Positions 52,466 to 54,884 of a DNA stretch of 64,000 nt are shown piece by piece. Numbering within the stretch: position 1 is the first letter of the stretch; each line of letters starts with the position of its first letter. Both the position numbers and the translations under genes were made by a program. The DNA comes from a virus (lineage: Duplodnaviria; Caudoviricetes). Location: positions 110,360-174,359 of the IMG/VR virus record IMGVR_UViG_3300032320_001447, one strand, 5' to 3'. The notes under the pieces are model-generated. The model saw nothing but the letters and a program-made list of their open reading frames with translations, ran no database searches and had not been told where the DNA came from.

Positions 52466-52532
52466 AGTGTTATAGATTTATATATAAATGTAACAATTAT
52501 GGATAAGATGGAGAAATAAAAGTTTAAAGTAA

Positions 52533-52867
52533 AGCTGTTGTTCTTTGACTTATTTTTTATTTTTTGTTAATTAACTTTGATTCTAATTTGTCTAGTCGAG
52601 AATCCATCATACTGTAGATGGCTTGTTCTGATTCTGCTCGATTTCGGTGAACTTGTTCTATCTCAAAGGATAGTACTCTATTTGTTTGAGCGTCTATTTC
52701 AATGACGTCTCTGTTAAGGTCTTCGATTCTTTTTTCTAACTTAATGGTCTTAAAGAATGCAATAACAGCAACTATCGCTAACGCGATAACCACCACTATG
52801 CTCATCCCTAAAACGAATGATAGTGTTTCCATATTTTATTTCTCCTATATGTCAAAGAACAACAGCT
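52533..52867. repeat. Perfect 17-bp inverted repeat bracketing one gene
   Basis: AGCTGTTGTTCTTTGAC (52533-52549) and GTCAAAGAACAACAGCT (52851-52867). Confidence 0.9.
52557..52832 (-). CDS. Single-TM coiled-coil membrane protein
   Basis: N-terminal hydrophobic helix, 'MDSRLDKLESKL'; AGGAGA 8 nt upstream of the ATG. Confidence 0.7.
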   Translation of the reverse strand: METLSFVLGMSIVVVIALAIVAVIAFFKTIKLEKRIEDLNRDVIEIDAQTNRVLSFEIEQVHRNRAESEQAIYSMMDSRLDKLESKLINKK

Positions 52868-52868
52868 A

Positions 52869-53513
52869 TTATTTTCTACCTAATTCCCATCCCATAGGAA
52901 CAGAATCAGTTTTTTTTATTTTTTTATTCTCAATACCATTTGTTATCCAACAAGTTCCAAATTGTGAATTATTAAAACCTAAACCATGTCCAACTTTAGA
53001 TTGTTTCATTTTTTCTATTGTCTCAGATTTGTGTTGTTTACCAGTCCAATCTAAATGGAATAATGTGCGGCCATTTTCTTTTCGTTTAATATAACAAGTA
53101 TAACTAGCTATTTTCATTTTTTCAATATAACTGTTACGATATGTTTCATTTGTTTTTAATAATTCGTTATGCTTTTTATTAGCACATATAGACCTATATT
53201 TCTGCTGCTTGTCTGAAATGAATCCACCCTTCCCGCCAATCATCAAATTCATACACATAGCGTCTTTTATAACCTCTTCATTAACTAATTCTCTTTCTCT
53301 TTTAACTAGTGATTCTCTATCGTCAAAGAATTCTAGAATCTCTAATTTGAAATTCTCTTTACCGTATTTTCTTACAGATCTTCTAAGTCTTTTTCCGCTT
53401 CCTAAATAACCATCATTCAAATTAGAAGTCGAATGCATTCCTATATAGTATTTTCCATTCTTAAGATTTGTTGTCTTATAAATGAAATGGTACTTGTGTT
53501 TTGGCCTTGGCAT
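52869..53513 (-). CDS. GIY-YIG (Seg-like) homing endonuclease next to the tRNA
   Basis: 'FIYKTTN...YYIGMHST...YLGSG', 'HKSETIEKMK', 'GWELGR'. Confidence 0.85.
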   Translation of the reverse strand: MPRPKHKYHFIYKTTNLKNGKYYIGMHSTSNLNDGYLGSGKRLRRSVRKYGKENFKLEILEFFDDRESLVKRERELVNEEVIKDAMCMNLMIGGKGGFISDKQQKYRSICANKKHNELLKTNETYRNSYIEKMKIASYTCYIKRKENGRTLFHLDWTGKQHKSETIEKMKQSKVGHGLGFNNSQFGTCWITNGIENKKIKKTDSVPMGWELGRK

Positions 53514-53561
53514 ATCTATGGTTTATTATAAATATGCTCAAGGTACAAAAAGTAGTCCCGG

Positions 53562-53649
53562 CGGAGAGAGTAGGATTCGAACCCACGGAACAGTTTCCCG
53601 TTCTCCTGATTTCAAGTCAGGTGCAATAGACCAACTCTACCATCTCTCC
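53562..53649 (-). tRNA. tRNA-Ser(UGA)
   Basis: GGAGAGA/TCTCTCC acceptor, CCTGA-CTTGAAA-TCAGG anticodon arm, long variable arm, GTTCGAATC T-loop, G discriminator; CCA not encoded (CCG follows). Confidence 0.95.
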
Positions 53650-53789
53650 ATTACGGTGGCGACAATACTTAGACTAGGGCTGCAGACCCTTAGTATTGCG
53701 GTTCTTCAACCACCAACCACCAGCTTAAGACGTCAATGCCAATGGTCCTGCTTATATTAGAGACGTTTTGGCAGCCAACGTCTTTACGG

Positions 53790-53905
53790 TGCCGGTGGAA
53801 GTATTGCTTAACTTCACGGAGTCCTTTTCGGTCACTCCACCACTTCGAATCAGGTACGTCTCAATGTTACTCGTCAGTTTACATTGTTTATTCCGCCACA
53901 CCGGC
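53790..53905 (-). ncRNA. tRNA-like RNA (class II body, aberrant D, anticodon and T arms)
   Basis: GCCGGTG/CACCGGC-A acceptor, TGGCGGAAT...AGACGT D arm with hairpin insert, GGAGT/ACTCC arm, GAAGT/ACTTC arm. Confidence 0.6.
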
Positions 53906-53916
53906 ATATTAAATTT

Positions 53917-54006
53917 AGGAAAGCAGAAGATGGGTGCGTGGACATCTGCTTTTACGATTGGCATTTCTAACCGATTTATGCAATAAATGCTCATCCCAAT
54001 CAACCT
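53917..54006 (-). ncRNA. Candidate structured RNA (multi-stem junction)
   Basis: AGG/CCT closing, GATTGG/CCAATC and AAAGCAGA/TCTGCTTT stems. Confidence 0.5.
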
Positions 54007-54091
54007 TAATACTGAAACAAACTACCCACAATTTTTCTAAGTCGCCATCCAAGTCATGCTCTGGTTAAACAAGCGGTAGGTAGTTGTATTT

Positions 54092-54502: not shown

Positions 54503-54516
54503 AACCTTTATTTTAG

Positions 54517-54884
54517 TGGAGATGACGAGAGTCGAACTCGTGTCTTCACAATGAATAATAATACCAACGTCTCACACGCTTAGATCTACGTTTTAAGCTG
54601 ATCAGTAAAAGGGTCGTATGGTTTTTGGTCCTTACGATATCCACCACTTAATTTTAATCTAAACTAAGAAAATCTGGTTTGTAACTTCTGTTCCTAGGAT
54701 GTTACACCCGATGCTAATTAAGCAGCTAATGCGTACTCGTTCGCGCCTACGAATTCCATTAAAGAATCGAAGGTCATTGTTGACATTTCGTCGGTTATTG
54801 TTTTGTACAGATTTAAAGAGATCTAGTACTTCTCTCTGCGTGTGGTATTACCTCCGAATTGCGAATCAATTCCAAAGCATCCCC
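54517..54884 (-). ncRNA. ssrA: tmRNA
   Basis: 5' GGGGATG / 3' CATCTCC-A with G3:U pair, T-arm GAGTTCGACTC, tag frame 54792-54718 reading DEMSTMTFDSLMEFVGANEYALAA*. Confidence 0.93.

What the first reader, a model, noticed from the sequence alone, without database searches (positions are those of the whole stretch)
52533..52867. One gene enclosed by a perfect 17-bp inverted repeat resembling an rRNA boxA/processing stalk, with a rare Shine-Dalgarno
Seen on the transcript strand: AGCTGTTGTTCTTTGAC-ATAT-AGGAGA-AATAAAAT-ATG [91-aa TM coiled-coil ORF] TAA-AAAATAA-GTCAAAGAACAACAGCT. The two arms could pair across the whole ORF. GTTCTTTGACA resembles rrn boxA, which in many bacteria sits in the helix flanking pre-rRNA. 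I noticed no comparable SD before other genes here, and Bacteroidetes largely avoid SD use. Inference: the mRNA is looped out like a pre-rRNA (Nus antitermination, RNase III excision, stabilisation), or a 5'-3' pairing controls translation of a membrane-toxic protein as in some type I toxin mRNAs. An invertible DNA segment is an alternative.
Basis: partly seen in the sequence, partly recalled or inferred. Interest (0 to 1): 0.72.

Follow-up and report, generated by a model that had tools for sequence, protein, structure and literature searches.

The report
Phage mRNA packaged like pre-rRNA
A small membrane-protein gene of a large lake phage is enclosed by a conserved RNA helix that pairs the two ends of its message and carries an exact copy of the host-type ribosomal-RNA boxA signal; the message is therefore built like an rRNA precursor inside the phage's tRNA operon, an arrangement I did not find described in the literature.

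Summary
The perfect 17-bp arms (52533-52549 and 52851-52867) are the only two copies in the 174-kb phage. They enclose a real 91-aa TM/coiled-coil gene. Across 72 distinct homologous units the arms persist. The outer 7-11 bp covary (37 haplotypes), and G.U outnumbers A.C 76 to 11, so this is an RNA helix on the mRNA strand, not a DNA repeat. The inner 5' strand plus four further bases, GTTCTTTGACATAT, is kept in 65 of 72 units. It is letter-for-letter the 16S-23S spacer boxA element of Sphingobacteriia/Chitinophagia rrn operons. AGGAG follows in all 69 clean units, in a phage where only 2 of 194 genes have such a Shine-Dalgarno. In 64 of 69 units the helix starts flush with a tRNA, tmRNA or tRNA-like 3' end. 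In the window a SegB-like homing endonuclease gene has been inserted exactly at that junction. A distant clade keeps an end-pairing helix without boxA or SD. DNA inversion is rejected, and a type I toxin reading is not supported. Processing, Nus binding and the cargo's function remain inferred. The scan had already met this cassette on other phage genomes. I found no published description.

The parts
52851..52867 (-). 5' strand of the end-pairing RNA helix (leader strand), 17 nt
   Evidence: Perfect complement of 52533-52549. It corresponds to columns 8-24 of alignment A1. Pairs at columns 8-14 show 9-27 double changes among 56 units, and columns 9-17 have 0-1 unpaired cells each. The helix is recovered by the MFE fold (z -4.6) and by RNAalifold.
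52847..52860 (-). Host-type boxA word GTTCTTTGACATAT (first 10 nt inside the helix, last 4 nt unpaired)
   Evidence: Kept in 65 of 72 phage units. It is identical to the 16S-23S spacer element of 9 Bacteroidota operons. The A-variant occurs in 18 more spacers and once in a leader, with no other occurrence in 491 kb; about 0.002 expected by chance. The core GTTCTTTGA is the joint top 9-mer in 16S leaders.
52842..52846 (-). Shine-Dalgarno AGGAG, 4 nt after the helix and 9 nt before the ATG
   Evidence: Present in 69 of 69 units, with a fixed arm-to-ATG distance of 17-19 nt. It is one of only 2 such SDs among 194 genes of this phage.
52557..52832 (-). Cargo gene: 91-aa single-pass membrane protein with a coiled-coil tail and a conserved C-terminal DSRLDKLESKL motif
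   Evidence: 233 relatives. Alignment A2 shows an invariant TM helix and C-terminal motif. Predicted as one helix, residues 2-90, pLDDT 90. No Pfam or PHROG function. Absent from about 185,000 cellular genomes.
52533..52549 (-). 3' strand of the helix (trailer strand), starting 7 nt after the stop codon
   Evidence: Across relatives its inner half varies as GTYRAAGAAC, which keeps pairing to the invariant 5' strand through G.U wobbles.
52510..52521 (-). TTTTATTTCTCC on the transcript, a perfect 12-nt complement of the SD region, 11 nt after the 3' arm (crossing order with the main helix)
   Evidence: Inverted pair I7. It is kept only in the window's own clade, with z about 2-3 against shuffles. 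Other clades have a tRNA, a terminator or unrelated sequence there. Its status is unresolved and it is not part of the conserved core.
52869..53513 (-). SegB/SegE-like GIY-YIG homing endonuclease gene, with its stop codon 1 nt before the 5' arm
   Evidence: Pfam GIY-YIG and SegE_GIY-YIG, phrog_314 homing endonuclease at 2.8e-37; nucleotide hits to T4-type segB genes. The segment 52868-53559 is unique to the window. Homology with four relatives at 92-97% identity stops at the tRNA-Ser 3' end and resumes at the first base of the arm.
53560..53649 (-). tRNA-Ser(UGA), the upstream member of the RNA array
   Evidence: ARAGORN and Rfam.
54514..54884 (-). Phage tmRNA gene at the head of the local RNA array
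   Evidence: ARAGORN and Rfam RF00023, 83.7 bits. No boxA word lies at its 5' end in this window.

Best explanation
SHOWN: the 17-bp repeat is the DNA footprint of an RNA helix that pairs the 5' and 3' untranslated ends of one small mRNA. This leader-trailer helix of 16-22 bp is conserved and covaries across a family of large phages whose leaders look Bacteroidota-like. Its 5' strand contains an exact copy of the boxA element that in Bacteroidota rrn operons follows tRNA-Ala and precedes the 23S rRNA. A strong Shine-Dalgarno follows 4-5 nt later, in a system that otherwise lacks them. The unit sits in the phage tmRNA/tRNA array on the same strand. Typically its first paired base is flush with the preceding tRNA's 3' end, and a tRNA 5' end or an intrinsic terminator follows its last paired base.

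INFERRED: the gene is transcribed as part of the stable-RNA precursor and is matured in the manner of an rRNA. While the 5' strand is still single-stranded, host NusB/S10 bind boxA as on rrn transcripts. This keeps RNA polymerase processive through an array that ribosomes do not protect, and holds the leader at the polymerase. When the trailer emerges about 300 nt later it pairs with the leader. The enzymes that trim the neighbouring tRNAs (RNase Z-type and RNase P), and possibly RNase III acting on the helix, then leave a discrete message of about 340 nt. Its ends are clamped in a duplex and so protected from end-dependent decay, and its SD lies just outside the helix.

In this window a homing endonuclease gene has landed between tRNA-Ser and the helix, so here the 5' end must be defined by the helix or by another cut.
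For: RNA helix: 84.7% of cells paired against 75.3% in shuffles (0 of 500 shuffles reach it); covariation score 0.398 against 0.220 (0 of 500); sliding the partner gives 32-55%. There are 37 outer-arm haplotypes. G.U outnumbers A.C 76 to 11 (p = 4e-13), and 41 to 3 in register-safe columns. The MFE fold (z -4.6) and RNAalifold both recover the helix.

boxA: the 14-mer is identical to host spacer elements and is restricted to rrn spacers and leaders in 491 kb. In hosts the same element lies after tRNA-Ala (24 of 33 operons) and pairs with the 23S trailer (z at or below -2 in 10 of 17).

Array context: 40 of 69 units have a called tRNA or tmRNA end at -3 to +5 nt (mode 0). A further 24 have an uncalled T-loop/acceptor-like end. 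13 have a tRNA 5' end at -5 to +6 nt after the helix, and 7 have a terminator. All 114 flanking RNA genes are co-oriented, and there is no Bacteroidota-type promoter near the window's unit.

Module boundaries: homology with close relatives breaks exactly at the helix's first base.

Precedent: rrn leader-trailer helices of more than 17 bp, with an invariant 5'-strand element and a Watson-Crick/wobble partner, together with the boxA-NusB anchoring model (PMC10250234).
Against: There are no transcript data, so the RNA ends, cleavage and co-transcription are all unproven. In the finished helix boxA is fully paired, which should exclude NusB/S10. In host stalks only the 3' part of boxA is paired and the helix runs on the other side of it. 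boxA sits in the middle or at the end of the array rather than at its head, and there is no second copy before the tmRNA here. A distant clade of the same gene family keeps an 11-13 bp end-pairing helix with neither boxA nor SD, and with its own terminators, so the helix can work without Nus factors or tRNA processing. In the window and 4 other units an ORF, not a tRNA, precedes the helix. The host is inferred, not known.
Confidence: 0.5

Rival explanations
1. Pure end clamp. The helix only protects and defines the mRNA ends, or closes the message into a loop for efficient re-initiation. The boxA-like word has no Nus-related role and is kept for another reason, such as a nuclease determinant or a helix-stability constraint.
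For: A distant clade of the same family (about 30% identity) keeps a significant 11-13 bp end-pairing helix (z -2.5 to -6.3) with an ordinary A-rich leader, no AGGAG, no canonical boxA and its own terminator. This makes end pairing the deepest conserved trait. The helix is flush with the ends that tRNA processing would generate.
Against: It does not explain why 65 of 72 units keep 14 nt identical to the host rrn spacer element, including 4 unpaired nt, while the outer helix drifts freely. Chance identity is expected about 0.002 times in the host set.
Confidence: 0.25
2. Nus-dependent translational gate, as at E. coli suhB or lambda nutL/N. The Nus complex on boxA, looped to RNA polymerase, blocks ribosome entry at the SD 4-5 nt away while the message is being made. 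The 3' arm then acts as an anti-boxA that strips the complex, so that only finished transcripts are translated.
For: The suhB boxA lies 6 nt from its SD and represses translation through the boxA-polymerase loop. Lambda N is repressed from nutL and relieved by RNase III (PMC5725501). Here the boxA-to-SD distance is 4-5 nt, the arm-to-ATG distance is fixed at 17-19 nt, and boxA is fully sequestered once the helix forms.
Against: This is entirely by analogy with Gammaproteobacteria. Whether Bacteroidota Nus complexes repress translation is unknown to me. The distant clade lacks boxA.
Confidence: 0.15
3. Type I toxin-like control. A 5'-3' fold-back keeps the mRNA of a membrane-damaging peptide inert until 3' processing activates it, as in hok mRNA, possibly acting as a lysis timer.
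For: There is long-range 5'-3' pairing around a small TM protein gene. In the window's clade only, a 12-nt SD complement lies just 3' of the helix.
Against: The SD is outside the helix and has no conserved partner across clades. The cargo is 80-135 aa with a 60-residue soluble helix, unlike peptides of about 50 aa or fewer. No antisense gene or promoter was detected. The gene is single-copy and syntenic in an RNA array.
Confidence: 0.05
4. DNA-level element: an invertible segment, or terminal inverted repeats of a small mobile cassette.
For: The DNA repeat in this window is a perfect 17 bp. The cassette is found after many different tRNAs, and its boundaries coincide with homology breakpoints.
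Against: In most relatives the two arms differ as DNA, and they do so in the direction that keeps G.U pairs on the sense strand (76 against 11). The commonest pair at one position is G.U (34 of 56). No unit is inverted relative to 114 flanking RNA genes. There is no recombinase nearby: the neighbour is a GIY-YIG endonuclease present only in this window.
Confidence: 0.02

Closest known systems
Bacteroidota rrn 16S-23S spacer: tRNA-Ala, short hairpin, boxA GTTC(T/A)TTGACATATTG, 23S leader-trailer helix
   Same: The 14-nt word GTTCTTTGACATAT is identical (9 operons exact, 18 with one change). It lies shortly after a tRNA 3' end, is part of one strand of a long-range helix that encloses the downstream cargo, and the partner strand lies just after the cargo.
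   Different: The cargo is a 276-nt ORF rather than the 23S rRNA. The phage helix uses boxA itself plus the 7-11 nt on its 5' side, whereas the host helix starts within boxA (TGACA) and runs on its 3' side. There is no boxB-like hairpin between the tRNA and boxA. An SD and a start codon follow.
E. coli rrn leader-trailer helix and the rrnTAC model (PMC10250234)
   Same: A helix of more than 17 bp formed by sequences flanking the cargo and supported by covariation. A nearly invariant element sits in the 5' strand, and its partner varies by Watson-Crick/wobble interchange. boxA is proposed to anchor the leader at RNA polymerase until the trailer emerges.
   Different: In E. coli the invariant in-helix element is boxC and boxA lies upstream of the helix. 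The cargo is rRNA. RNase III cleavage is demonstrated there and not here.
boxA acting on an mRNA: E. coli suhB autoregulation and lambda nutL/N (PMC5725501)
   Same: A boxA lies a few nucleotides upstream of an SD on a protein-coding message (6 nt in suhB, 4-5 nt here). There is a phage precedent for Nus-site control of translation, modulated by RNase III.
   Different: Those sites have no complementary 3' arm enclosing the ORF and are not in tRNA arrays. Lambda also needs its own N protein and boxB.
hok-type type I toxin mRNAs (fold-back inhibition; from my own knowledge)
   Same: 5'-3' end pairing of the mRNA of a small membrane protein.
   Different: Here the SD is not sequestered, no antisense RNA is evident, and the cargo is larger with a long soluble helix.
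tRNA punctuation of mitochondrial polycistronic transcripts (from my own knowledge)
   Same: An mRNA is bounded directly by tRNA genes, so RNase P and RNase Z cuts would define its ends.
   Different: This is a bacterial phage, and the mRNA carries an additional terminal duplex and a boxA.
SD-led rpsU of Flavobacteriales, read preferentially by bS21-less ribosomes (PMC9976891, PMC7797042)
   Same: It is one of very few strongly SD-led genes in an otherwise SD-blind system.
   Different: The rpsU SD is extended, whereas here the core is AGGAG or AAGGAG. No link to bS21 was tested, and the phage has no bS21 gene.

Membership tests
rrn-type boxA (NusB/NusE binding element) | Sequence matches the boxA consensus of the host lineage | tested here: met
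   GTTCTTTGA is the joint top 9-mer in 67 Bacteroidota 16S leaders at -75 to -140. The 14-mer is identical to 9 spacer elements and one change from 18 more.
rrn-type boxA (NusB/NusE binding element) | Lies in a transcript of stable RNA genes, downstream of a tRNA or promoter and upstream of the cargo | tested here: met
   It is co-oriented within the tmRNA/tRNA array, and 64 of 69 units directly follow a tRNA-type 3' end. The cargo, however, is an ORF.
rrn-type boxA (NusB/NusE binding element) | Binds NusB-S10 and modifies RNA polymerase (antitermination) | not testable with these tools
   This needs binding assays or genetics. The host is unknown.
rrn leader-trailer (processing) helix | Long-range helix of about 17 bp or more formed by the cargo's flanks, supported by covariation | tested here: met
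   16-22 bp in 67 of 69 units. RNAalifold agrees.
rrn leader-trailer (processing) helix | Encloses an rRNA | tested here: not met
   It encloses a conserved protein-coding ORF of 80-135 codons.
rrn leader-trailer (processing) helix | Cleaved by RNase III | not testable with these tools
   No read data were available.
Type I toxin mRNA with fold-back inhibition (hok-like) | SD or start region sequestered in the inactive fold | tested here: not met
   The SD lies outside the helix. The only SD complement (52510-52521) is clade-specific.
Type I toxin mRNA with fold-back inhibition (hok-like) | Short hydrophobic toxin of about 50 aa or fewer, and a cis-antisense RNA | tested here: not met
   The cargo is 80-135 aa with a long soluble helix. 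No antisense promoter or gene was seen; absence of the RNA itself is not proven.
Invertible DNA segment | Identical inverted repeats as DNA, both orientations found, recombinase nearby | tested here: not met
   The arms differ as DNA in most units, in the G.U direction. None of 114 flanking RNA genes is on the opposite strand. There is no invertase.
Free-standing GIY-YIG (Seg-type) homing endonuclease (the neighbouring gene) | GIY-YIG catalytic domain, and presence/absence polymorphism at a precise site between close relatives | tested here: met
   PF01541 and PF19835; phrog_314 at 2.8e-37. The 692-bp segment is unique to the window between the tRNA-Ser end and the helix start. Cleavage activity was not tested.

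The most novel reading that the evidence does not exclude
The cassette plugs a phage message into the host's ribosome-biogenesis machinery. boxA loads the rrn-type antitermination and chaperone complex, and the helix imitates an rRNA processing stalk. The strong SD, unreadable by mature Bacteroidia ribosomes whose anti-SD is buried under bS21, restricts translation to 30S subunits with a free anti-SD (late-assembly particles or particles stripped of bS21). The membrane protein would then be made only when and where the host is building or remodelling ribosomes, which would amount to a phage sensor or timer keyed to ribosome assembly.
Probability: 0.1. Interest if true: 0.9.

Novelty: new variant of a known kind. 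Interest (0 to 1): 0.72.

Why it matters
This would be a protein-coding message that borrows the cis-architecture of rRNA precursors: a host boxA plus a leader-trailer helix, embedded in a tRNA operon.

- It points to a route by which Bacteroidota phages could recruit the host Nus machinery without a lambda-N-like protein.
- It gives a natural, strongly conserved test case for what an SD does in an SD-blind translation system.
- It supplies a compact module (two arms of about 20 nt) that may insulate and stabilise a message, which could be useful for gene expression in Bacteroidota.
- It shows that ORFs inside phage tRNA arrays can be structured units rather than filler.
- The exact boxA variant may help to assign hosts; here it is the Sphingobacteriia/Chitinophagia type rather than the Flavobacteriaceae type.

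Tried and rejected
- **Cellular copies of the cargo family:** none in genome contigs.
- **Function of the cargo:** Pfam, PHROGs and the Atlas gave only sub-threshold TM/coiled-coil look-alikes (DUF4446 in 11 of 28 members, all below cut-off). The fold is a single helix, so no fold search was run.
- **SD complement at 52510-52521 as a general switch:** rejected, because it is confined to the window's clade.
- **A second boxA before the tmRNA** (a lead from earlier notes): absent in this window.
- **Phage bS21:** absent.
- **Bacteroidota-type promoter (TTG...TAnnTTTG) next to the cassette:** none found. The sigma-70 and terminator scans gave nothing above shuffles apart from an intragenic hairpin.
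- **Pairing of the host 16S-leader boxA with the spacer:** significant in only 5 of 12 operons, so inconclusive.
- **Bare 14-mer scan of viral contigs:** dominated by coding coincidences and rrn-like ...ATATTG contexts. It yielded only two more cassette variants, L325 and L258.

Full report
**1. What is in the sequence**

On the minus strand the window reads: arm AGCTGTTGTTCTTTGAC (52867 down to 52851), ATAT, AGGAG, nine bases, ATG at 52832, a 91-codon ORF, TAA, AAAATAA, and the perfect complement of the arm (52549 down to 52533). The 17-mer has no other copy, even with three mismatches, in the window or in the complete 174,359-bp virus record to which the window belongs.

The surroundings on the same strand are, in order:
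- a tmRNA gene (54514-54884);
- a 136-aa ORF and a 440-nt ORF-free stretch;
- tRNA-Ser (53560-53649);
- a SegB/SegE-like GIY-YIG homing endonuclease gene (52869-53513), whose stop codon is one base from the arm;
- the enclosed ORF;
- small zinc-ribbon ORFs, a PD-(D/E)XK exonuclease gene and a glycosyltransferase gene.

**2. The ORF is a real gene**

It has 233 relatives of 80-135 aa in the large protein collection, several on phage contigs of 170-326 kb, and none in about 185,000 representative cellular genomes. The family has an invariant N-terminal TM helix, a variable middle and a conserved C-terminal DSRLDKLESKL motif. AlphaFold predicts one continuous helix (residues 2-90, pLDDT 90). No library assigns a function.

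**3. The arms are an RNA helix**

I fetched loci by protein similarity and by a DNA pattern for the conserved 5' motif. Every locus with the motif has the same gene family downstream and a complementary arm after the stop codon, giving 72 distinct units.

An alignment of 56 units with distinct arm pairs (A1) gives the following.
- 84.7% of cells in the 21-pair helix are standard pairs, against 75.3% after shuffling (0 of 500 shuffles reach it).
- The covariation score is 0.398 against 0.220 (0 of 500).
- Pairing falls to 32-55% when the partner is slid by 1-3 columns.
- Columns 9-17 have at most one unpaired cell each among 56 sequences.
- Columns 8-14 carry 9-27 double changes each.
- There are 37 outer-arm haplotypes.
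- Mismatches are overwhelmingly G.U on the sense strand: 76, against 11 A.C, which would be the wobble on the other strand (p = 4e-13). In register-safe columns the count is 41 to 3.
- The commonest pair at one position is G.U in 34 of 56 units.

A DNA inverted repeat would not behave this way. The single-sequence fold contains the helix (z -4.6), and RNAalifold predicts it independently. None of the 114 tRNA/tmRNA genes flanking the units lies on the opposite strand. Inversion is therefore rejected.

**4. Context: a cassette in the phage tRNA array**

Figures below are unless stated.
- Of 69 units with a clean helix, 40 have a called tRNA or tmRNA 3' end within -3 to +5 nt of the first paired base. 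The commonest distance is 0. The upstream genes are tRNA-Leu, Met, Thr, Glu, Gln and Asp, or tmRNA.
- A further 24 have an uncalled T-loop/acceptor-like end there. In L044 this is a 155-nt tRNA-like RNA with an encoded CCA.
- Only 5 have neither, and the window is one of them.
- After the helix, 13 units have the next tRNA's 5' end within -5 to +6 nt, and 7 have an intrinsic terminator.
- The arm-to-ATG distance is fixed at 17-19 nt, and the loop is 265-432 nt.
- Against four relatives of 92-97% identity, homology stops at the tRNA-Ser 3' end and resumes exactly at the first base of the arm. The 692 bp between them, carrying the endonuclease gene, is unique to the window. It replaces tRNA-Gln plus an 85-aa ORF in two relatives, and a longer set of genes in two others.
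- The helix therefore marks the boundary of a module, and the junction beside it is an insertion hot spot.

**5. The boxA claim**

I pulled 80 Bacteroidota rrn loci.
- In 67 16S leaders, GTTCTTTGA ties for the most widespread 9-mer (29 leaders), level with the promoter -7 word, at -75 to -140. Flavobacteriaceae use AGTTCATTGACAG, and Chitinophagaceae-type leaders use GATCTTTGAAAG.
- Following a lead from an earlier report of this scan, I examined the 16S-23S spacers. In 24 of 33 operons a boxA-like word lies 18-104 nt after the last spacer tRNA, often after a short hairpin. It reads GTTC(T/A)TTGACATATTG, and it pairs with the 23S trailer (z at or below -2 in 10 of 17).
- The phage's GTTCTTTGACATAT, kept in 65 of 72 units, is identical to the spacer element of nine operons (Pedobacter, Sphingobacterium, Mucilaginibacter, Flavihumibacter, Chitinophagaceae). 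It is one change from 18 more, mostly Flavobacteriaceae.
- In 491 kb these 14-mers occur only in spacers (28 times) and once in a leader. About 0.002 would be expected by chance.
- The register differs. Host stalks begin within boxA and extend 3' of it, whereas the phage helix covers boxA and extends 5' of it.

**6. The Shine-Dalgarno**

The phage has 35.5% G+C, with A-rich, G-poor leaders. Only 8 of 194 crude genes have any SD core, below the intragenic background, and only two have AGGAG or GGAGG: this ORF and an Hsp20 gene. AGGAG is present in all 69 units.

Published work shows that Bacteroidia ribosomes are blind to SD sequences because bS21, bS18 and bS6 bury the anti-SD. It also shows that the SD-led rpsU is read preferentially by ribosomes lacking bS21 (PMC7797042, PMC9976891). 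The phage has no bS21 gene.

**7. A distant clade**

Homologs of about 30% identity (L037-L042, L373-L376) have an ordinary A-rich leader, no AGGAG, no canonical boxA, no adjacent tRNA and their own terminators. An 11-13 bp helix (TATCAGTTCAA with TTGAACTGATA) still pairs the 5' leader with the sequence just after the stop codon, with z from -2.5 to -6.3 in all eight. End pairing is therefore the deepest conserved trait of this gene's expression. boxA, the SD and the embedding in a tRNA array characterise the large clade to which the window belongs.

**8. Mechanism**

Shown: the RNA helix, the host-type boxA word, the tRNA-flush geometry and the exceptional SD.

Inferred:
- The unit is co-transcribed with the RNA array.
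- Nus factors bind boxA while it is still single-stranded, as in rrn operons. The model in PMC10250234 has boxA-bound NusB holding the leader at the polymerase until the trailer emerges.
- The helix then forms, and tRNA-processing enzymes and/or RNase III leave an end-clamped mRNA.

A Nus-dependent translational gate is a serious rival or complement. In suhB, boxA lies 6 nt from the SD and the Nus complex represses translation, and lambda N is repressed from nutL with relief by RNase III (PMC5725501). A plain end clamp without Nus factors is supported by the distant clade. These readings are not mutually exclusive, and none could be tested without transcript or binding data.

**9. Novelty**

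Searches of the held literature found the components: the rrn leader-trailer helix, boxA on suhB, lambda nut sites, and SD-blind Bacteroidia ribosomes. They found no description of an mRNA enclosed by a boxA-bearing leader-trailer helix in a phage tRNA array. The scan itself had already met the same cassette on other phage genomes, and two follow-up reports reached a similar reading. I re-derived the helix, the array context and the leader boxA independently, and I tested their spacer-boxA claim myself. The claim of a second boxA before the tmRNA does not hold in this window.

Noticed in passing
window 52868-53559: The junction between tRNA-Ser and the cassette is an insertion hot spot. The window has a SegB-like GIY-YIG endonuclease gene there and lacks tRNA-Gln. 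Relatives at 92-97% identity have tRNA-Gln plus an 85-aa ORF, or several ORFs, tRNA-Gln and a giant tRNA-like RNA.
   Followed up: partly
L044:2807-2965: A tRNA-like RNA of about 155 nt (8-bp acceptor stem, T arm, very long extra arm, encoded CCA) lies directly 5' of the cassette in close relatives. Neither ARAGORN nor Rfam calls it.
   Followed up: partly
L044:818-1239: A GOLLD RNA (RF02032, 232.8 bits) lies between the tmRNA and the tRNAs in a close relative. The window has no GOLLD match at the gathering score.
   Followed up: no
window 53650-54091: A 440-nt ORF-free stretch between the 136-aa ORF and tRNA-Ser is conserved at 77-95% with relatives but has no Rfam match at E up to 1. It may be an uncatalogued RNA.
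   Followed up: partly
L371:155-595 (G000:C1:5254-5694, outside the window): The only other strongly SD-led gene of the phage is an Hsp20 small heat-shock protein with an extended SD, AGGAGGTG.
   Followed up: partly
window 52762-52799: A hairpin of about 17 bp, rich in G.U pairs, lies inside the TM-coding part of the ORF. RNAalifold predicts it (A1 columns 80-123, several double changes) and the terminator scan flags it. It could be real structure or a by-product of Val/Ala/Ile codon repeats.
   Followed up: no
L266, L293, L261, L283 and others: The host-type word GTTCTTTGACATATTG occurs in other viral contigs outside this cassette: 35 of 79 bare-14-mer hits continue TG, where 6% would be expected. 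Some lie just before tRNA genes. Some of these contigs may be bacterial rrn fragments.
   Followed up: partly
L325 and L258: These are cassette variants. L325 follows tRNA-Arg by 8 nt and has a helix but AAGGAA instead of AGGAG. L258 has the same ORF family with boxA but no SD and a weak 3' arm.
   Followed up: no
window 54514-54884: ARAGORN gives the phage tmRNA a 24-residue tag (ending ...GANEYALAA), whereas for relatives it-residue tags (ANEYALAA). The resume codon is therefore ambiguous.
   Followed up: no
L037-L042, L373-L376: A distant clade of the cargo family carries a different, nearly invariant end-pairing helix (TATCAGTTCAA with TTGAACTGATA). It sits between an upstream terminator and the gene's own terminator, without boxA, SD or a tRNA.
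   Followed up: yes
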